Virus record (IMG/VR): IMGVR_UViG_3300045391_002681
Location: 1 to 64,000 of that record
Reading direction: 5' to 3' (one strand)
Length of the DNA: 64,000 nucleotides
From: a virus
Below the pieces are notes generated by a model. It did no database searches. It was not told the origin of the DNA and was given only the letters and a program-made list of their open reading frames with translations. Below, piece by piece: positions 10,263 through 43,735 of this stretch; the first letter of the stretch is position 1; every line of letters begins with the position of its first letter. The position numbers were made by a program, and so were the translations under genes.

Positions 10263-10636
10263 CAGATGCCCTTCACGGAGCTGCCGCGCTCGGCGCGCCG
10301 GCGTCTGACCCCAAGCTCATCGCGCAGGAAACCCTGGTCCCGCTTGATGTCGGCCAGTTGGCTCTGCATGTGGCCGTTCTGGTCGTTCCAGCGCACGGCC
10401 AGGTTCTGGATGGCGTCGGCGAACTTCTGGCCCATGTGCTCGATGGCGGCGGCGAGGGCCGGCATCTGCCGCGACTCGTCCTGCAGCCGGTCGATCTTGC
10501 TCTCGGCCTTCTCCAGCCGTTCCTTGAGGTCGCGCACCATCTGGCGCACGACGCCCCAGGTCACCGCGAGGCCCATCAACCCGAGCACCACTGAACCGCC
10601 GACGGCGACCAGGGCCGCCATGATCGTCTCGCTCAT
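10262..10636 (-). CDS. TM + coiled-coil protein (holin/antiholin-like)
   Basis: N-terminal TM then coiled coil; lysis cassette position. Confidence 0.55.
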   Translation of the reverse strand: MSETIMAALVAVGGSVVLGLMGLAVTWGVVRQMVRDLKERLEKAESKIDRLQDESRQMPALAAAIEHMGQKFADAIQNLAVRWNDQNGHMQSQLADIKRDQGFLRDELGVRRRRAERGSSVKGI

Positions 10637-15916: not shown

Positions 15917-16339
15917 CTATTCCAGTTGGACGGTCGCCTGCCAGGTCGAGGACCCGGAGGTGATGTCGATGGTGAAGATGTCGTCCGCCGCGATAGGCAG
16001 AGGCGATGAGGTCAGCGCGGTGAAGGTGGAGACAGTCCCCGCGGCGGTCCCATGCGACACCGTGGGGTCCGCCGAGAAGATGTCCGTTCCGTTCTGCTTG
16101 ATGCGGAACGTCAAATCGACCGTCCCGTCTGACGCCTTGGTCACCACTTTGCATTTGGTGACGGACCCGGATCCGGGCGCGATGACCAAAGGACAGACGC
16201 TGCTACCGGTCGCGCCGGTGTTGAGGATGAAGCCGAGCACCCTCGGAGTGTCGTTCGTCGTGAGCGCGAGCGTGTCGCCCGACGGCAACTCGGCAATAAG
16301 GCCGCCGCTGTTGATTACCAGAGGATAGCGCGCGGTCAT
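15917..16339 (-). CDS. Minor tail protein
   Basis: Beta-rich, coupled to the central tail protein. Confidence 0.65.
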   Translation of the reverse strand: MTARYPLVINSGGLIAELPSGDTLALTTNDTPRVLGFILNTGATGSSVCPLVIAPGSGSVTKCKVVTKASDGTVDLTFRIKQNGTDIFSADPTVSHGTAAGTVSTFTALTSSPLPIAADDIFTIDITSGSSTWQATVQLE

Positions 16340-19335
16340 CGACGGATCACCGGATCGCCGGGCTCAAAGGTCATGGCGGTGCTTGAATGGGCGAAGCCGA
16401 CGCGCTGGACGATCTGGCCGGTCCCGGTCGGAGCGGTCGCCGTCACCTGCCCGGCAGTCGCGGCGAGGTATTGTTCGCCTGCTGTAAGCCCAGAGAGCCC
16501 GGTCACGTCGCCGCTGGCATAGACCGTCGCCGTGCCGCCCGACGAAACGCTGGTGACAACATAGCCGTGCGCTTCCTTGCCGGAGGTCGAGGCGTTGGCG
16601 TTTCTGACCTTCGCCGCGCCGCTGCTGTTCCAGATGTTGACCAGGGCGGGCGCCGTGATCGCCTCGGATGCGGTCAGCGTCATCACTCCCGCAACTGGGG
16701 CCGCGACAGTAACCGTCGTCGTGCTTGACCACGGACTGACCTGCGCGCCGGCGATGTAGGCGACCTGAACATCAACCGAGCCCGTCGCCGGGATCAGGCC
16801 GGTCAGGATAGTCAGAGGCGAGCCGGTGGCCGTGATGGAAGATCCGCCGTCCGTCCACACGCTGTCGGCCGACAGCTTCCACTGCACCTTCCATGTGATG
16901 TTGCCGCCAGGATCGGCGACGACGATGGACAGGCGCGCTCCCTGAACCCCGCCGCCGGAGTTCGGATAGACCGGCGTGACGCTGGTGATCGTCGGCGCGG
17001 CCAGCGGCTGAAGCGGTGAGCCGGAGGGCGGCGCGAGGGGCGGGAGGGTGTAGCCAGCTCCCGCCGTGGCGACAGAGCCGAACATCGCCACCTCGATGTC
17101 CGCTGTGACAGCCTGGGCCGTCAGGGCGAGCGGCAGGCCGTCTTCAGGCGTGTTGTCGATGTGCGAGGTGTAGGTCGTACCGAAATGGCCCTCCACGTCG
17201 ATAGAATTGATCCGCACACCGGGCATGGTGGCGATCACGGCTTCGGCGTCGGCCAGATATGTTGGCCACAGACTGGAGGTCTGGGTGGTATCGGTGATGC
17301 CGCCCCAAACCATGATGATGCGTTTGGTCAAGATCGACGGATCGGTTCCGTCGAAGAAGGTCTTGGCCTCGCTCAGGCATGAAGCGGCGTCGAAGCTGAA
17401 GTCGGCGTCCATGGTGAGCGCGCTGACAAAGGTGATGATGTCGGCGATATCCGACGCTGTCGCGGCCGGCTTAACGATACTGGACACGGCATGATCGAAA
17501 GCGACCACAGCGATGTCCAGGCCTGATCCATAGGTGGCCCCGATCAGCGAAAGGGCGTTGATGACGCCGTTTTTGACCCTCGTGACCGCAGAGGCGTCGC
17601 CGTACTTGCTCACGTCCAGAATGAAGCAGACCGCCTGATTGGCGCCAGAGCCATATCCGCCCACGACCACGCACGGGAAGCTCGCCGTCATCGTGGAAAT
17701 GTCGATGGAGACCTTCCCAGTTACCTCAAGGATGCCGTTGGCGGCAGACAGGGACGGATCGAGGACATCGAGCCTGATATACCGCTCGCCCATGACCGCG
17801 AGGCCCGCGAGGTTGCAGGTGAGGGTCAAGCGAAGGGGCTGCGTCTGGCGCGCCAGCATGGCCCGCGCGACGCTGATCGCCTGCGGCGCGGACGGGACCC
17901 ATTGCAGATAGAGCTCGTTGTTGCGGACGTCGCCCCGAGCAGCGATGTCGATGTCGTCCTGCACATAGCCGGCCTCGGCCTTGTTGAAGGCGCTGGCCGG
18001 ATCGGTGTAGCTGACGATGTACTGATTGGTGGCCTGCTCGTCGGGCAGGTAGTTCTGTAGCTGGTAGCCGACGATATGGCGGTCCGAGAGCGTGACCGTC
18101 GGCGCATAGACCGTGTTCGTTCGCACCACCAAGGCGCCGTCGCCACGTTGGCCGAGCCAGCCGTCGAAGGTCTGCAGGATCGACTTGACCACATCGCCGG
18201 GCGGCGTGTCGTGCTTGTAGGTCCCGGCGCAGCGGTAGCGGGCGGATTGGCCCGAGGCGTTCCAGTAGGCCAGTTCACCGGCCGTGTGACTGTTGGTCAG
18301 GGTTCCGGTGAGATCGACTTCGCCCGCCAGGCCAAGACCAGAGACGGTGACGTTCTGCCCATCGGCCAGTTGAATGACCACGCCGGCCGTCAGGCCCGTG
18401 GTGTCGGCGAGGAAGATCTTGTTGTCGCCGGCAGCGGCCGCGTCCAGCAACGTGGCATGCATCCCCGAGGTGGAGACTAGGCCGTCGCATTCGTCAGCGG
18501 CGGCCGTCCAGAAATCGATCGCAGGAAGGATGAACCGGCCGTAATCCAGCCCCATCCCGCCAGAGGCGTCGGTCAGGTAGGCCAGCAGGCACAGGACCGG
18601 GTTGTCGCTGAACTTGTAGGTCGAAGGATCGCCCTGCGTCTGGCTCACGTCGCGCGGGTCGAAGATCAGCTGCGCGTCGATCACCGCCGATGGCTGCGGA
18701 AGGCCGTTGGGGAAGTCGCCGGCCTGGTCCTCGCGCTTGGCCTGCGTGCAGGTCAGCAGCATCGACGTGACGCCGTCGCCCCTGTGGTCCGAGGTCCACA
18801 CCGGCACGTCAGACGAGATGGCATAGGCCGTCTCGGTGGAGAGCCCGAGACGGCTGTCGATCTTGACCAGGTTCGGCTCGTTGGAGCCGCCGCCGCCGTA
18901 CTTGCCTGGCGCGCCCGGCGCCCACCAGAAGTTGCCCGAGGCGGTCTTCGCCATCAGGTCGTCGTTCAGGTAGAAGCCGACGATGGCGCTGCTCTGGCCG
19001 TCCAGCAGGGCCAGCACGTCGTATGAGATGTTGGTGTGCGTGGTTCCGGTGACGTAGAGGGCATAGGCGCCCGCGACCCGGACCCGGCCAAAGGCGGATT
19101 GCCTGACCGGCATCGGCTGCTTCAGCGGGAACTGCAGCGCCTGGGGATCGGGAGCCTTGGGCGCGAACGCCGCGCCGATGGCCGCCGAAATGCCGGTCGT
19201 CACGCCGATGGTGGCGGCTGTGTAGCCGATCGTCGACGCCGCATCGATCGCGGCCGAACTGATGGTGAACAGACCGACCGTGTTGGCTGCCGCAGCGGAG
19301 GCCGCGGTGGCGATGGCGGTAACGGCTCCCGACAT
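16336..19335 (-). CDS. Central tail tip protein with vWA-like insert and decoration-like C-terminal domain
   Basis: AFGRVRVAG, DPRD...SDNPVLC, RYRCAG motifs; CFILDVS vWA strand. Confidence 0.85.
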   Translation of the reverse strand: MSGAVTAIATAASAAAANTVGLFTISSAAIDAASTIGYTAATIGVTTGISAAIGAAFAPKAPDPQALQFPLKQPMPVRQSAFGRVRVAGAYALYVTGTTHTNISYDVLALLDGQSSAIVGFYLNDDLMAKTASGNFWWAPGAPGKYGGGGSNEPNLVKIDSRLGLSTETAYAISSDVPVWTSDHRGDGVTSMLLTCTQAKREDQAGDFPNGLPQPSAVIDAQLIFDPRDVSQTQGDPSTYKFSDNPVLCLLAYLTDASGGMGLDYGRFILPAIDFWTAAADECDGLVSTSGMHATLLDAAAAGDNKIFLADTTGLTAGVVIQLADGQNVTVSGLGLAGEVDLTGTLTNSHTAGELAYWNASGQSARYRCAGTYKHDTPPGDVVKSILQTFDGWLGQRGDGALVVRTNTVYAPTVTLSDRHIVGYQLQNYLPDEQATNQYIVSYTDPASAFNKAEAGYVQDDIDIAARGDVRNNELYLQWVPSAPQAISVARAMLARQTQPLRLTLTCNLAGLAVMGERYIRLDVLDPSLSAANGILEVTGKVSIDISTMTASFPCVVVGGYGSGANQAVCFILDVSKYGDASAVTRVKNGVINALSLIGATYGSGLDIAVVAFDHAVSSIVKPAATASDIADIITFVSALTMDADFSFDAASCLSEAKTFFDGTDPSILTKRIIMVWGGITDTTQTSSLWPTYLADAEAVIATMPGVRINSIDVEGHFGTTYTSHIDNTPEDGLPLALTAQAVTADIEVAMFGSVATAGAGYTLPPLAPPSGSPLQPLAAPTITSVTPVYPNSGGGVQGARLSIVVADPGGNITWKVQWKLSADSVWTDGGSSITATGSPLTILTGLIPATGSVDVQVAYIAGAQVSPWSSTTTVTVAAPVAGVMTLTASEAITAPALVNIWNSSGAAKVRNANASTSGKEAHGYVVTSVSSGGTATVYASGDVTGLSGLTAGEQYLAATAGQVTATAPTGTGQIVQRVGFAHSSTAMTFEPGDPVIRR

Positions 19336-19337
19336 CG

Positions 19338-19808
19338 CTACTTCCCGGTCACGACGATGGTGTTTGAGTGGCCCGGCTGGCGCGACATGAGCTTGGCAGC
19401 CTCGCTGGTGAACTCGTCCTCGGCCTCTCCGACACTCTTTGCTGAGGTGGCAAAGATCATCGTCAGGTACGTGTCCGCGTGGGCGAAGAAAGCCTGCTTT
19501 CGGTGCGCGCTGGCCGGCAGGACGGCATAGCCAGTCAGTCGCTCGGCGCTGTCTCCGCGAGACACGGTGCAGTCGCCCGATACGATCAGGACCGTGGCCA
19601 CTTCGACGAGCGCGCCCGTGATGGCGACGCCAGCAGGGATCATGATCGTGCGGGCGTAGAGGCCGGCGTGCAGGACGTGTTGGGTGGCGATCTCGGCCTG
19701 GGGCAGTTGGGCCGCGCGTATCTCCGCTTCACTGATTGCGGCGATGCCCTCGGGGCTGGAAGCCAAAGCCGAAATCAGCAGGTACGGCGTGAGCATCACG
19801 TCCTGCAT
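19338..19808 (-). CDS. Cupin-fold hypothetical protein
   Basis: HVLHAGLYARTIMIPAG...G motif. Confidence 0.65.
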   Translation of the reverse strand: MQDVMLTPYLLISALASSPEGIAAISEAEIRAAQLPQAEIATQHVLHAGLYARTIMIPAGVAITGALVEVATVLIVSGDCTVSRGDSAERLTGYAVLPASAHRKQAFFAHADTYLTMIFATSAKSVGEAEDEFTSEAAKLMSRQPGHSNTIVVTGK

Positions 19809-20251
19809 GGTGCTCCTTTCGCGAACACGCTGTTGCTGTGGCGGTAGCCGAGACGGGGCAGGATCCGCTCAAGGGCGCTGCCGGCCGGGGCCGTGATCAG
19901 CAGGCCGGTCCCATGCAGAGCGGCTAGGGCTTCGGCCGCGCGGATCAGCGCGCGCCCGGCCCCGGTGCGGCGGCGGTCAGCCCTGACGAACACACTCTCG
20001 ACGACCGAGATCGGGCCGCCGTAGTGCGGAAGACTGGAGCGCAGCACGCTGACGAAGCCGACCAGCCGGCCGTCCTCGCGCGCGGCGATGATGTTGAAAA
20101 GCCCCGCCTGCTCCAGGGCCGCGTACTGCTCCCATTGTGGTTGCGCGGCGGGCAGTTCAGGCGATTTCGCCTCGGCCGCGTATTCGGCGACCAGGGCCGC
20201 GATGTCCGGATCGCCCATGAGGTCGGCGACGGTTGCGACAGCGATGTCCAT
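19796..20251 (-). CDS. GNAT acetyltransferase
   Basis: VFVRADRRRTGAGRALI acetyl-CoA motif A. Confidence 0.88.
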   Translation of the reverse strand: MDIAVATVADLMGDPDIAALVAEYAAEAKSPELPAAQPQWEQYAALEQAGLFNIIAAREDGRLVGFVSVLRSSLPHYGGPISVVESVFVRADRRRTGAGRALIRAAEALAALHGTGLLITAPAGSALERILPRLGYRHSNSVFAKGAPCRT

Positions 20252-20289
20252 GCCGCAGCCTCCGCGTTCGGAAAATGTTGAAATGCGAA

Positions 20290-20309
20290 GGGCGGCCCGA
20301 AGACCGCCC
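20290..20309 (-). terminator. Intrinsic terminator closing the RAMP/array operon
   Basis: GGGCGGTC-TTCG-GGCCGCCC-TTCGCATTT. Confidence 0.85.
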
Positions 20310-20312
20310 CCT

Positions 20313-20454
20313 TAGACCAGCGCTGGCCAGCCCCGCCACGAGCCGCCCAACCACGCCTTGCCTGCCGAGCCGCGCCCAGCCAAGCCCTGCAATGCCTCGC
20401 CTGCCTTGACTAGCCCAGCGGTGCCAAGCCTAGCCTCGCGTTGCGGTGCCTGCC
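20313..20454 (-). ncRNA. Putative guide-RNA array: three units of GGCA-(GGY NN)n, n = 9, 7, 10
   Basis: Strict 5-nt periodicity; third base is a pyrimidine in 26/26 pentamers and 17/26 triplets are exact GGY; non-coding, between a stop codon and a terminator. Confidence 0.8.
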
Positions 20455-20464
20455 CTACCCCGAT

Positions 20465-20947
20465 TTAGCCCTTAAGGATGGGCCGAGTTTCGTCGATGGC
20501 CGAGAATATCCGAGCCAACTCCGACAACTCCGCATGGCGGGCTCGCCACGCCTCCAACTCGGTGAAAGCCCGGCGCAGAACCTGCTTGCGCAGTTCCTCG
20601 CTGGACATCGCCGTCGCCGTGGAAACGTAGCCGCGCGCGGTGTCGGTTTCCACGTTCACGAATGCCCTGACCGTCTTCTGCTCCACGTTGGATCGGGAGA
20701 TATCGACGGTCAGGGACCGCACAAGGTCTCTGGCCTGATCACAGCGGAAGGCCTCTGCCGCCGCGTGATCGTCCCATTCGAAGTGGTTGTGCAGGACCGA
20801 GTCCTCGGCCCGGGCCGCGTCAACGATCTGCTGCGGCTCCAGCGGGTCGTTGCGGCCCTTCTGGAGATTGGCGATGGCTTCGCCCGCCTTCTGCGCGTCG
20901 ATGCCGATGCGGGAGCCTTGGCGCCAGCCGTAGATGACCCTAGCCAT
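20465..20947 (-). CDS. Conserved phage protein, partner of the RAMP-like gene
   Basis: LHNHFEWDDHAAAEAFRCDQAR motif; 8-nt overlap with the upstream gene. Confidence 0.75.
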   Translation of the reverse strand: MARVIYGWRQGSRIGIDAQKAGEAIANLQKGRNDPLEPQQIVDAARAEDSVLHNHFEWDDHAAAEAFRCDQARDLVRSLTVDISRSNVEQKTVRAFVNVETDTARGYVSTATAMSSEELRKQVLRRAFTELEAWRARHAELSELARIFSAIDETRPILKG

Positions 20948-21590
20948 GCAGGGCCTCGATTTCTCCGGCAGCGGCGACGCGGAACCGGCCGAACAGGCCG
21001 TCGCGTTCCGGGCGCCACTCGCCAACACCGACTGCGAAGCCGGCGAGGTTGAACAGGGTGACGACCTGCTCCGCTGAGATGACGGCGGTGTTGATCTGCA
21101 CCTTGACCTTGACGCCCCACGGATCGAACTGGCCGCGGTAGCGCAGGTCCGCCACACCCATGCCGACGCGGGTCACGTCCTCGCGCATGGCCGGCGGTGG
21201 CCCGATGATCTCGGCCATCTCGTCGACGACGTGAAACGCCTGCCGGGCCGCGACCTTGGTCACCGAGCCAGTGGACGTGCAGGCCGTGACGGCGGCCGAC
21301 TTGAAGGCGACGCCGGGGAAACCGAACTTGGCCTTGTCGATGTCATCCGCGGTCGGCCTCTCGGGCTTGGCGGAGAGCCAGTAGAGGCTGCCGACGAAGT
21401 CGTCGAACGGCACCTTGGCCTCGCGGCCCTTGGTCGCCTTCTTCTGTTGCTTATCGGCCATGGCCCGGAGCGCCTTTTCGCTCCAGGCATGGACGATCAG
21501 CGGCGTTGTCCCGATCAGCGGGATTTCCACGGTCTCAAGCGCCAGCGGAGGCAACTCGATCGCCGTGCTTGTTTTCGCTACAGCGGCCAT
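20940..21590 (-). CDS. Stand-alone Cas7/RAMP-like protein
   Basis: LIGTTPLIVH (beta1), FPGVAFKSAA (cf. IPGSSLKG), C-terminal Gly-rich loop GVGEWRPERDGLFGRF. Confidence 0.75.
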   Translation of the reverse strand: MAAVAKTSTAIELPPLALETVEIPLIGTTPLIVHAWSEKALRAMADKQQKKATKGREAKVPFDDFVGSLYWLSAKPERPTADDIDKAKFGFPGVAFKSAAVTACTSTGSVTKVAARQAFHVVDEMAEIIGPPPAMREDVTRVGMGVADLRYRGQFDPWGVKVKVQINTAVISAEQVVTLFNLAGFAVGVGEWRPERDGLFGRFRVAAAGEIEALHG

Positions 21591-21796
21591 CAGGCGCCCT
21601 CGTACATGTAGGAGCCCTCATCTTCGCAGACCGCCTCTTGATCGAAGCTGTCTTCGAAGTCCGGATCACCATCCATGCGGTCTAGCGCGGCGATGAGCCG
21701 CTCGACAGCCGCTTCGATGCGGCGCCGCAGTTGGTCCCGGTCATTGGACGGGATGGTGACGCGCACGCGCGGCGTCTTTAGAATGGCGACAGCCAT
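21590..21796 (-). CDS. Small acidic protein
   Basis: GGAG RBS; TGATG coupling to the RAMP-like gene. Confidence 0.65.
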   Translation of the reverse strand: MAVAILKTPRVRVTIPSNDRDQLRRRIEAAVERLIAALDRMDGDPDFEDSFDQEAVCEDEGSYMYEGA

Positions 21797-21827
21797 GACC
21801 TGATCTCCATAGGATCGGTTGCGGTTA

Positions 21828-21862
21828 GGGCCGGCTCGGTGTTGCAAGCACCTTGTCGGCCC
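21828..21862 (-). ncRNA. Conserved leader hairpin, copy 2
   Basis: GGGCCGACAA-GGTG-CTTGCAA-CACC-GAGCCGGCCC. Confidence 0.55.
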
Positions 21863-21890
21863 GACACGTTTATGATACCACGCTATCACG

Positions 21891-22088
21891 ATGTCAATTG
21901 CTGATAGCAAGAAATCAGGAAGGCCGGCGACCGGCACCGGAACCCCGGTGATGGTTAGGCTGTCCGATGCCCAGCTTGAGGCCCTTGATCGTTTCCGCTC
22001 TAGCGCGCCCGGAATACCTTCCAGGCCCGAGGCGCTTCGGCGATTGATGGACTTGGCATTGCAGGCTCGATCTTCGGACGAGGCCTGA
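21891..22088 (+). CDS. Ribbon-helix-helix regulator (paralogue of 12584-12811)
   Basis: GRPATGTGTPVMVRL...SRPEALRRL. Confidence 0.8.
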   Translation: MSIADSKKSGRPATGTGTPVMVRLSDAQLEALDRFRSSAPGIPSRPEALRRLMDLALQARSSDEA

Positions 22089-43661: not shown

Positions 43662-43735
43662 TGGAGCGGCGACGGGGATTCGAACCCCGATCCTCAGCTT
43701 GGAAGGCTGCGGCTCTACCCTTGAGCTATGGCCGC
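43662..43735 (-). tRNA. tRNA-Gly(TCC)
   Basis: GCGGCCA TAGCTCAAGGGTAGAGC...CAGC-CTTCCAA-GCTG...CGGGG-TTCGAAT-CCCCG TCGCCGC TCCA. Confidence 0.92.

What the first reader, a model, noticed from the sequence alone, without database searches (positions are those of the whole stretch)
20313..20454. Array grammar: GGCA-(GGY NN)n, three units with information confined to the dinucleotides
Minus-strand parse. Unit 1 (20454-20406): GGCA ggcAC cgcAA cgcGA ggcTA ggcTT ggcAC cgcTG ggcTA gtcAA. Unit 2 (20405-20367): GGCA ggcGA ggcAT tgcAG ggcTT ggcTG ggcGC ggcTC. Unit 3 (20366-20313): GGCA ggcAA ggcGT ggtTG ggcGG ctcGT ggcGG ggcTG gccAG cgcTG gtcTA. The phase is never broken except by the 4-nt GGCA separators. 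The third base is Y in 26/26 pentamers, while the NN positions are diverse (AT-rich in unit 1). Slippage microsatellites homogenise, so position-specific variability implies selection. The GGCAGGC junctions are plausible processing sites giving 49, 39 and 54 nt RNAs.
Basis: seen in the sequence. Interest (0 to 1): 0.92.

Follow-up and report, generated by a model that had tools for sequence, protein, structure and literature searches.

The report
Phage VIPR guide-RNA array
The odd five-base repeat is the guide-RNA array of a VIPR system, a phage-borne, CRISPR-like DNA-silencing device first described in 2026 preprints.

Summary
Window 20313-20454 (- strand) parses exactly as GGCA-(GGYNN)n in three units of 49, 39 and 54 nt. 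Lag-5 identity is 0.62 against a contig mean of 0.265 (sd 0.046), and no other place in the 98-kb virus contig shows it.

The array is the last part of one operon: a 216-aa protein, a 160-aa protein, the array, then a hairpin. These three parts stay together in 90 of 92 related loci, including Mycobacterium and Gordonia phages. The order of the parts varies.

- **Protein:** The 216-aa protein folds as a Cas7-type RAMP. It is a profile-level homologue (98.5%, E 1.8e-15) of the experimentally studied SUSP1 Vipr, and all of the RNA- and DNA-contact residues checked are kept.
- **Array:** Across 75 arrays, GGY is conserved (85/83/85%). NN differs completely even between close relatives.
- **Identity:** This is a VIPR system (bioRxiv 10.64898/2026.04.26.720920, .720927 and 2026.10.15.759431) with the "staggered" array type.
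- **Targeting rule:** I tested 273 guides of this clade on 22 phage genomes. Only the published 1-nt-skip rule gave an excess of matches. The matches fall in capsid, terminase, tape-measure and rival vipr genes, with the skipped base at the wobble position.
- **This window's guides:** I found no target for its three guides.

This scan had already met VIPR on other DNA. Verdict: a new member of a known kind.

The parts
21891..21896 (-). Possible -35 box (TTGACA) of the operon promoter, followed after about 17 nt by CATAAA
   Evidence: Read directly. The consensus scan did not list it, so this is inference only.
21590..21796 (-). 68-aa acidic ORF whose stop overlaps the vipr start (ATGA). Probably not a core part of the system.
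   Evidence: Only one weak tblastn relative (L017) was found among 92 loci, and there is no significant Pfam match.
20940..21590 (-). vipr: a 216-aa RAMP (Cas7-like) protein, with one protomer expected per GGYNN repeat
   Evidence: PHROG phrog_4652. The AlphaFold model has pLDDT 85.7. Foldseek against the PDB gave 41 hits at E<=1e-3, and every one shown (31 of them) is a CRISPR RAMP backbone subunit. hhalign against SUSP1 Vipr gave 98.5%, E 1.8e-15, with H34, K50, R56, R152 and E191-W192-R193 aligned to SUSP1 H17, K33, R39, R138 and D177-W178-R179.
20465..20947 (-). vap-like accessory gene: 160 aa, motif S.LH.HFEWDD..AA..R..QAR, with a long C-terminal helix. It overlaps the vipr end by 8 nt.
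   Evidence: PHROG phrog_15946. At least 161 homologues; alignment A1. It lies next to a vipr homologue in 90 of 92 loci. The model has pLDDT 88.8. The only fold matches are weak and winged-helix-like (Z<=6). It shows no similarity to SUSP1 vap1.
20455..20459 (-). Leader repeat GGTAG in front of the first GGCA. Close relatives have GGCAG-GGCA here.
20406..20454 (-). vrRNA unit 1: GGCA plus 9 repeats. Guide dinucleotides: AC AA GA TA TT AC TG TA AA.
20367..20405 (-). vrRNA unit 2: GGCA plus 7 repeats. Guide dinucleotides: GA AT AG TT TG GC TC.
20313..20366 (-). vrRNA unit 3: GGCA plus 10 repeats, the last four degenerate. Guide dinucleotides: AA GT TG GG GT GG TG AG TG TA.
   Evidence: The phase of the last four repeats is ambiguous; the parser also allows a GGCT tetramer there.
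20288..20311 (-). 10-bp hairpin with a UUCG loop that ends the array. It is a likely terminator or 3' cap and has no clear U tract. The same hairpin occurs in close relatives.
   Evidence: Fold. The same motif appears in L016 and L018. The terminator scan did not call it.

Best explanation
Window 20313-20454 (- strand) encodes three back-to-back VIPR guide RNAs (vrRNAs) of a phage-borne VIPR system.

**Proposed mechanism**
1. The operon (small ORF, vipr, vap, array, hairpin) is transcribed as one RNA. This step is inferred.
2. Vipr protomers bind one per GGYNN repeat. Each sequesters GGY and presents the two N bases. This step was shown for the SUSP1 homologue and is inferred here from the conserved contact residues.
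3. Each GGCA tetramer shifts the register by one base and marks the start of the next guide, as in the published "staggered array". This gives RNAs of roughly 49, 39 and 54 nt. The sizes are inferred.
4. The filament reads double-stranded DNA with two paired bases followed by one skipped base, and it silences transcription of the bound gene.
5. In this clade the predicted targets are essential structural or packaging genes and the vipr genes of related rival phages. The likely role is therefore inter-phage competition.

The 160-aa partner is an accessory (Vap-type) protein. It is probably a dimeric nucleic-acid binder, and its exact role is unknown.
For: - **Periodicity:** It is confirmed and unique in the contig.
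- **Linkage:** vipr, vap and a period-5 array are linked in 90 of 92 loci, in the orders A-B-R, A-R-B and R-A-B. 74 of 75 arrays are G-rich on the gene strand.
- **Repeat consensus:** 3,627 pentamers give G 85%, G 83%, Y 85%, N, N. GGCA accounts for 264 of 420 tetramers. Spacing between GGCAGG marks peaks at 44/49/54/59 nt, so most units hold 9-12 repeats.
- **NN variability:** NN and the number of units differ entirely between relatives whose Vipr is 82-84% identical.
- **Protein:** The 216-aa protein has a RAMP fold. It is homologous to SUSP1 Vipr with all the key residues I checked kept.
- **Literature:** The published description of VIPR matches on every point I checked.
- **Skip rule:** In silico, skip 1 gives 3/5/14/31 guides at E<1e-4/1e-3/1e-2/0.05. 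The controls give 0/0/0/0 (skip 0), 0/1/1/9 (skip 2), 0/0/2/6 (skip 3), 0/1/2/7 (guides read backwards) and 0/0/4/10 (shuffled).
- **Targets:** In each of the six best sites, the skipped base is codon position 3 of the longest ORF. Five fall in a vipr gene, head morphogenesis, terminase large subunit, tape measure and an unannotated 1,280-aa ORF; major head protein is the eighth-best site.
- **Self-targeting:** There is none in the window's own genome. The paper reports the same for its systems.
Against: - I found no natural target for the window's own three guides. This covers its own genome, 48 whole related virus records at up to 3 mismatches, and exact-core scans of IMG/VR, genomes and metagenomes.
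- Unit 2 has only 7 repeats, below the published 9-16. Several repeats are degenerate (CGC, GTC, TGC, CTC, GCC).
- There is no expression or processing data. No sequencing run was listed.
- The accessory protein is unrelated to the one studied Vap (vap1), and its fold match is weak.
- The staggered array type was described only from sequence in the paper. Its sRNA-seq confirmation covered other array types.
Confidence: 0.9

Rival explanations
1. The locus is a VIPR locus, but the array is decayed or idle. Its guides no longer match anything, and some repeats are too degenerate to be bound.
For: No target was found for any of the three guides. Unit 2 is short. 6 of 26 repeats lack G at position 1 and 4 of 26 lack G at position 2.
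Against: Both genes are intact, overlap and are well conserved. Position 3 is Y in 26 of 26 repeats. The paper notes frequent internal degeneracy in working vrRNAs. My scans of the big collections could only find exact cores, so missing targets are expected. Many published guides also lack known targets.
Confidence: 0.07
2. The array is a protein-binding RNA tract in which only the GGY triplets matter and NN is a free spacer. This would resemble the TRAP-binding (G/U)AG repeats of Bacillus, or a sponge or autoregulatory 3' UTR for the neighbouring proteins.
For: The 5-nt spacing of a conserved triplet and the units of about 10-11 triplets resemble the 11 triplets bound by a TRAP ring (my own knowledge). 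There is no stable fold (z -0.27).
Against: NN sequences of this clade match rival phage genes far more often than controls, and only with a 1-nt skip in codon register. The adjacent protein is a RAMP homologous to a proven guide-RNA binder.
Confidence: 0.02
3. The array is a DNA-level element, such as a packaging site, an origin or a slippage microsatellite, with no RNA role.
For: It lies in an intergenic gap close to structural genes. In some relatives, HNH or portal genes follow it.
Against: The strand is fixed relative to the genes in 74 of 75 arrays. The position within the cassette varies, but the array always stays with vipr and vap. The copies are too unlike each other for slippage, which would homogenise them. 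The published system is RNA-based.
Confidence: 0.01

Closest known systems
VIPR systems (Vipr + Vap + vrRNA): bioRxiv 10.64898/2026.04.26.720920, 10.64898/2026.04.26.720927 and 10.64898/2026.10.15.759431. Best-studied member: Escherichia phage SUSP1 (type II).
   Same: Both are phage-borne, minimal two-gene loci with a long non-coding flank. The RAMP protein is homologous to SUSP1 Vipr, with the GGY-binding and DNA-clamping residues kept. The GGY/NN pentamer repeats have hypervariable NN. The 1-nt-skip targeting falls in wobble register on genes of competing phages, including rival vipr genes. There is no self-targeting.
   Different: There is no conserved 3' tail or pseudoknot. Instead the guides abut and are set apart only by a GGCA tetramer, the "staggered" array of the paper's fig. 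S18, which the authors did not confirm by RNA sequencing. The accessory protein is unrelated to vap1. Guides here are 7-10 repeats long rather than about 12. The host range is high-GC alphaproteobacterial phages, with relatives in actinophages. I could not assign the type (I-VII) because the paper's tables are not held.
Class 1 CRISPR-Cas backbone (Cas7/Csm3/Cmr4 filaments on crRNA)
   Same: Both have a RAMP fold with G-loop and thumb. One protomer binds per fixed step of guide RNA, and the thumb periodically breaks the guide-target duplex.
   Different: The step is 5 nt with 3 bases hidden, against 6 nt with 1 base flipped. There is no repeat-spacer array, and I found no cas1/cas2 adaptation genes or nuclease partner next to it. 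The guides are hard-wired in the phage genome.
TRAP-RNA recognition in Bacillus (11 (G/U)AG triplets with 2-3 nt spacers)
   Same: A conserved triplet recurs every 5 nt in runs of about 10-11.
   Different: In TRAP the spacers carry no information and the protein is a beta-sandwich ring. Here the spacers are the guide and the protein is a RAMP filament. This was a resemblance I recalled and then set aside.

Membership tests
VIPR system | A Vipr protein: a minimal RAMP (RRM core, G-loop, thumb) encoded next to the array | tested here: met
   The model has pLDDT 85.7. All 41 Foldseek PDB hits at E<=1e-3 that are shown are CRISPR RAMP subunits. hhalign to SUSP1 Vipr gave 98.5%, E 1.8e-15, over 176 columns.
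VIPR system | Residues that read GGY and hold the DNA (SUSP1 H17, K33, R39, R138, D177, W178, R179) | tested here: met
   They align with window H34, K50, R56, R152, E191, W192 and R193. R152 and R193 are invariant in the 19-sequence family alignment. D177 is replaced conservatively by E.
VIPR system | vrRNA region made of tandem GGY/NN (YNNGG) pentamers, at least 4 in a row and typically 9-16 per vrRNA | tested here: met
   There are 26 pentamers in runs of 9, 7 and 10. Unit 2 (7 repeats) is below the usual range. Across 75 related arrays the mode is 9-12.
VIPR system | GGY conserved and NN hypervariable among related arrays | tested here: met
   The consensus is 85/83/85% for G, G and Y, with all four bases at N4 and N5. 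Relatives with 82-84% identical Vipr carry unrelated NN strings and different numbers of units.
VIPR system | An accessory vap gene in the same operon | tested here: inconclusive
   A conserved 160-aa partner sits beside vipr in 90 of 92 loci. It is unrelated to vap1 of SUSP1. Its fold matches are weak winged-helix-like hits at Z<=6. I could not check which of vap2-6 it is, if any, because no supplementary tables are held.
VIPR system | Guides match DNA of competing mobile elements under the 1-nt-skip rule, often with the skipped base at the wobble position | tested here: met
   This holds for the clade: skip 1 is enriched over skips 0, 2 and 3 and over backwards and shuffled guides. The six best sites are in wobble register, and the top targets fall in structural, packaging and vipr genes. 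For this window's own three guides no target was found.
VIPR system | vrRNAs are expressed, processed and co-purify with Vipr | not testable with these tools
   No sequencing run was listed for this DNA.
VIPR type II (SUSP1 / P. fulva clade) | Each vrRNA ends in a conserved structured 3' tail (pseudoknot), and vap1 is the partner | tested here: not met
   The units abut with only GGCA between them. SUSP1 shows tails of about 60 nt between its repeat tracts. The partner is not vap1. So this is not type II.
VIPR staggered array (fig. S18 of 10.64898/2026.04.26.720920) | Successive vrRNAs overlap by 1 nt, so the register slips by one base at each boundary | tested here: met
   GGCA tetramers occur at each boundary, and the last pentamer GGCAG shares its G with the next GGC. 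The same holds in 75 arrays: 264 GGCA among 420 tetramers, with spacing modes of 49 and 54 nt.
CRISPR-Cas locus | A repeat-spacer array (repeats of about 28-37 nt) with cas adaptation and effector genes | tested here: not met
   No Rfam CRISPR repeat family or other RNA family matches the region. Tandem Repeats Finder over 19000-22000 and the lag scans up to 12 nt show no longer-period repeat at the locus. The neighbours are a GNAT gene and tail genes. Only the RAMP fold is shared.

The most novel reading that the evidence does not exclude
The GGCA tetramer may be a self-sufficient phasing and boundary signal. It would let tail-less guides be packed head to tail and separated without ribozymes, pseudoknot tails or a Cas6-like enzyme. 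Separation could come from register-locked Vipr filaments plus host RNases, or from the unstudied 160-aa partner acting in processing. The LH.HFEWDD partner would then be a new functional class of Vap, shared by alphaproteobacterial phages and Cluster F-type mycobacteriophages. Among these phages, reciprocal guide-versus-genome targeting (G018 and G024) would map a natural exclusion network.
Probability: 0.25. Interest if true: 0.55.

Novelty: new member of a known kind. Interest (0 to 1): 0.35.

Why it matters
VIPR was reported only in 2026, as a possible ancestor of CRISPR RAMPs and as a new, programmable way to read double-stranded DNA. This locus adds nothing categorically new, but it contributes in four ways:
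1. A careful reader recovered the vrRNA grammar from raw sequence alone.
2. It adds an uncultivated high-GC phage lineage, with relatives in Mycobacterium and Gordonia phages. This lineage uses the tail-less staggered array, an architecture the authors did not confirm by RNA sequencing.
3. It gives independent in-silico support that the 1-nt-skip, wobble-aligned rule holds outside the Enterobacteria and Pseudomonas systems that were tested at the bench or in pangenome searches.
4. It points to reciprocal targeting of capsid, terminase, tape-measure and vipr genes among sister phages.

It also flags phrog_4652 and phrog_15946, both now labelled "unknown function", as vipr and a vap-like partner.

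Tried and rejected
- **RNA families:** Rfam at gathering cut-offs over the whole window gave only a tRNA. The permissive scan of 20100-20650 gave only noise.
- **RNA folding:** Neither strand folds better than shuffles (z -0.27 and +1.61).
- **Tandem Repeats Finder:** It finds nothing at the array.
- **Pfam:** No hit for either protein.
- **PDB sequence search:** The profile of the 160-aa family found nothing.
- **Fold of the 160-aa protein:** Foldseek gave no hit. VIA wide search gave only Z<=6 winged-helix-like and coiled-coil rows, within that tool's noise range. ESM Atlas returned only unnamed viral clusters.
- **Ideas dropped before the identification:** I considered a TRAP-like ring-binding RNA; a ring-forming single-strand annealing protein binding 5 nt per subunit; two-tier G-quadruplexes (the low-GC relative L003 has single G's); a pac/cos site; a primase hot spot; and Shine-Dalgarno decoys. 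The RAMP fold, the SUSP1 homology and the skip-rule result displaced all of them.
- I collected loci with the search for related loci instead.
- **Unavailable search:** The genome search 'relatives' is not available for a virus record.
- **Target searches for the window's guides:**
  - Own genome: matches equal shuffles.
  - 297 foreign guides on this genome: no excess.
  - Unit 1 exact core: 6 IMG/VR contigs (2 independent sequences, 35-42% GC; the shared sequence of five contigs has stops in the wobble frame), 13 unrelated genomes and 67 metagenome contigs (all 21-44% GC). I read all of these as chance hits to an AT-rich pattern. A shuffled control gave 0.
  - Unit 3: the full pattern gave 0, and the first 8 dinucleotides gave 35 contigs, none convincing.
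  - Units 1-3 with mismatches in 48 whole related virus records: 0.
- **Sequencing runs:** None was listed.
- **Type assignment:** No supplementary tables of the VIPR paper are held.
- **Small ORFs:** Pfam gave nothing for the divergent 65-aa ORF or the 68-aa leader ORF.

Full report
**1. The observation**

It has three units of 49, 39 and 54 nt. Each unit starts with GGCA and is followed by 9, 7 or 10 pentamers of the form GGY-NN.

Position 3 is a pyrimidine in 26 of 26 pentamers. Self-identity is 0.57, 0.51, 0.51 and 0.48 at lags 5, 10, 15 and 20. It is 0.19-0.40 at all other lags up to 20, with no rise at lags 3 or 6. In 100-nt windows, lag-5 identity reaches 0.62 against a mean of 0.265 (sd 0.046). 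No other place in the 98,411-base contig exceeds 0.44.

Tandem Repeats Finder misses the array. Rfam has no family for it. Neither strand folds better than shuffled sequence.

**2. Setting**

The array starts 5 nt after the stop codon of a 160-aa gene (20465-20947, minus strand). That gene overlaps the end of a 216-aa gene (20940-21590) by 8 nt. The stop codon of a 68-aa ORF overlaps the start of the 216-aa gene.

A 10-bp hairpin with a UUCG loop (20288-20311) closes the array. A GNAT acetyltransferase gene and tail-fibre genes related to Bordetella phage BPP-1 follow. The contig is a virus record.

**3. A conserved three-part module**

Relatives of the 160-aa protein were collected from genomes and IMG/VR. 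In nearly all of the 92 loci, the strongest period-5 stretch of the whole 4-6 kb lies directly beside the gene. 90 of 92 loci also carry a homologue of the 216-aa protein; the two exceptions have the 160-aa gene within 400 nt of the locus start, so little upstream DNA was held.

The order of the parts varies. It can be protein-protein-array, protein-array-protein or array-protein-protein. The strand does not vary: 74 of 75 distinct arrays are G-rich on the gene strand.

The module occurs in a 35% GC phage, where the repeat reads GTT/GGT-NN. It also occurs in Gordonia phages Ecliptus and Pipp and in Mycobacterium phage Quico and its kin. In Pipp, an annotated "gene 43" overlaps the array.

Over 3,627 pentamers the consensus is G 85%, G 83%, Y 85%, N, N. 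Of 420 four-base units, 264 are GGCA. Distances between GGCAGG marks peak at 44, 49, 54 and 59 nt, so most units hold 9-12 repeats.

Relatives whose 216-aa protein is 82-84% identical to the window's carry unrelated NN strings and one to three units.

**4. Identity**

Before I knew the answer, I considered a TRAP-like or annealing-protein ring that binds 5 nt per subunit. A look-up in this scan's earlier notes pointed to two 2026 preprints on VIPR systems, which I then read. A third preprint followed.

They describe:
- phage-borne loci with a minimal RAMP protein (Vipr), an accessory gene (vap) and vrRNAs of 9-16 GGY/NN repeats;
- one Vipr protomer per repeat, which hides GGY and presents NN;
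- double-stranded DNA read as two paired bases and one skipped base;
- binding that silences transcription;
- natural targets that are competing phages, satellites and rival VIPR loci;
- seven types, including "staggered arrays" whose vrRNAs overlap by 1 nt.

**5. Membership tests run here**

- **Fold:** The 216-aa protein was modelled at pLDDT 85.7. Against the PDB, Foldseek counts 41 matches at E<=1e-3, and every one shown is a CRISPR backbone RAMP: Csm3, type VII Cas7, Cas7-11, Cmr6 or Cascade Cas7.
- **Homology to SUSP1 Vipr:** I fetched phage SUSP1 (NC_028808.2). Its genes agp039 and agp038 sit between two long non-coding gaps full of GGT-NN repeats. The family profile of the window's protein aligns with agp039 at 98.5% probability, E 1.8e-15.
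- **Contact residues:** SUSP1 H17, K33, R39, R138 and D177-W178-R179 are the residues the cryo-EM paper names for GGY and DNA contacts. They fall on window H34, K50, R56, R152 and E191-W192-R193.
- **Accessory protein:** The 160-aa partner is not related to SUSP1 vap1. Its model (pLDDT 88.8) has a small alpha/beta domain with only weak winged-helix-like matches, plus a 43-residue C-terminal helix.
- **Type:** The locus is therefore a VIPR system but not type II. The abutting units with a one-base register slip at GGCA match the staggered architecture.

**6. An independent check of the targeting rule in this clade**

I fetched 21 related phage genomes, 20 of them essentially whole, and masked all period-5 stretches. 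I then scored every parsed guide against 1.16 Mb, on both strands, with 0-3 skipped bases.

With the closing GGCA unit dropped, 273 guides were tested. The table gives the number of guides whose best site has the stated composition-corrected expectation.

| Rule or control | E<1e-4 | E<1e-3 | E<1e-2 | E<0.05 |
|---|---|---|---|---|
| Skip 1 | 3 | 5 | 14 | 31 |
| Skip 0 | 0 | 0 | 0 | 0 |
| Skip 2 | 0 | 1 | 1 | 9 |
| Skip 3 | 0 | 0 | 2 | 6 |
| Skip 1, guides read backwards | 0 | 1 | 2 | 7 |
| Skip 1, dinucleotide order shuffled | 0 | 0 | 4 | 10 |

The uncorrected version shows the same pattern.

In each of the six best sites, the skipped base is codon position 3 of the longest ORF. Five of them fall in a head-morphogenesis gene, a large terminase, a tape measure, an unannotated 1,280-aa ORF and the vipr gene of another phage (22 of 22 guide bases over the peptide EDMVRVGMGTA); the sixth lies in an unannotated 221-aa ORF. 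A major head protein is the eighth-best site.

Two phages (G018 and G024) appear to target each other. Mismatches concentrate in the closing AG of the GGCA unit. Every guide is preceded by GGCA, including the first, which follows a GGYAG-GGCA leader. The last guide runs into the hairpin.

**7. The window's own guides**

None of the three guides has a better match in its own genome than shuffled guides (13/20, 12/16 and 14/20). This agrees with the published absence of self-targeting.

I found no credible natural target:
- The exact-core hits for unit 1 are all in 21-44% GC contigs of unrelated origin; the one hit I checked for reading frame has stop codons in the wobble frame on both strands.
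- Unit 3 has no full match and no convincing partial match.
- 48 whole related virus records hold nothing within 3 mismatches.

These scans of the big collections can only see exact cores, so this is a gap in the evidence, not evidence against function. No sequencing run was listed.

**8. Verdict**

This includes the proposed test, which is the one the discoverers used.

The feature is a new member of a known kind: a staggered-array VIPR system in an uncultivated high-GC phage. What I did not show here is the RNA ends, the binding, the role of the 160-aa partner and the targets of these three guides.

Noticed in passing
L005 2188-2457 (Gordonia phage Pipp, MN234179.1 33093-33362): Annotated protein-coding "gene 43" lies almost wholly inside a period-5 GGYNN array. 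It is probably a mis-called ORF over a vrRNA array.
   Followed up: partly
L006 1383-1708 (Mycobacterium phage Quico, between gp56 and gp57) and about 27 related Cluster F-type phages: These mycobacteriophages carry the same module: array, vipr homologue (gp57), then partner (gp58). It sits in the early region after Cro/Ant. All of the genes are annotated as hypothetical.
   Followed up: partly
G018 19881-19912 and G024 10271-10308 (loci L145, L157): Two related IMG/VR proviruses each carry a guide that matches a gene of the other (20/22 and 24/26 guide bases, in wobble register). This suggests mutual exclusion.
   Followed up: partly
window 21891-22088 (+): A 65-aa ORF is divergent from the VIPR operon. 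Its N-terminus looks like a ribbon-helix-helix (VMVRLSDAQLEALDRF), and imperfect inverted repeats lie over the putative promoter (21873-21917). Pfam gives no hit.
   Followed up: partly
window 43665-43735 (-): A tRNA gene (Rfam RF00005, 59 bits) lies inside the phage contig. I did not use it to infer the host.
   Followed up: no
window 16336-19808 (-): Tail-fibre genes (999 aa and 156 aa) are related to Bordetella phage BPP-1 bbp22/bbp23 at 69% nucleotide identity over 400 nt. A GNAT acetyltransferase gene (19796-20251) lies between them and the VIPR cassette.
   Followed up: no
L003 3393-3560 (IMGVR_UViG_3300037484_000173, 35% GC): A low-GC relative writes the repeat mostly as GTT/GGT-NN, often with a single G. 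The array runs straight into the Shine-Dalgarno sequence of the next gene, which looks like a portal gene from its N-terminal sequence (not checked with any tool). This may be one of the alternative consensus forms (NNNGG, YNNNG) that the paper mentions.
   Followed up: no
L020, L021, L055, L057, L084: A few loci with both genes show no clear period-5 stretch (maximum lag-5 identity 0.36-0.45). The array may be lost, lie beyond the fetched DNA, or be too degenerate for the scan.
   Followed up: no
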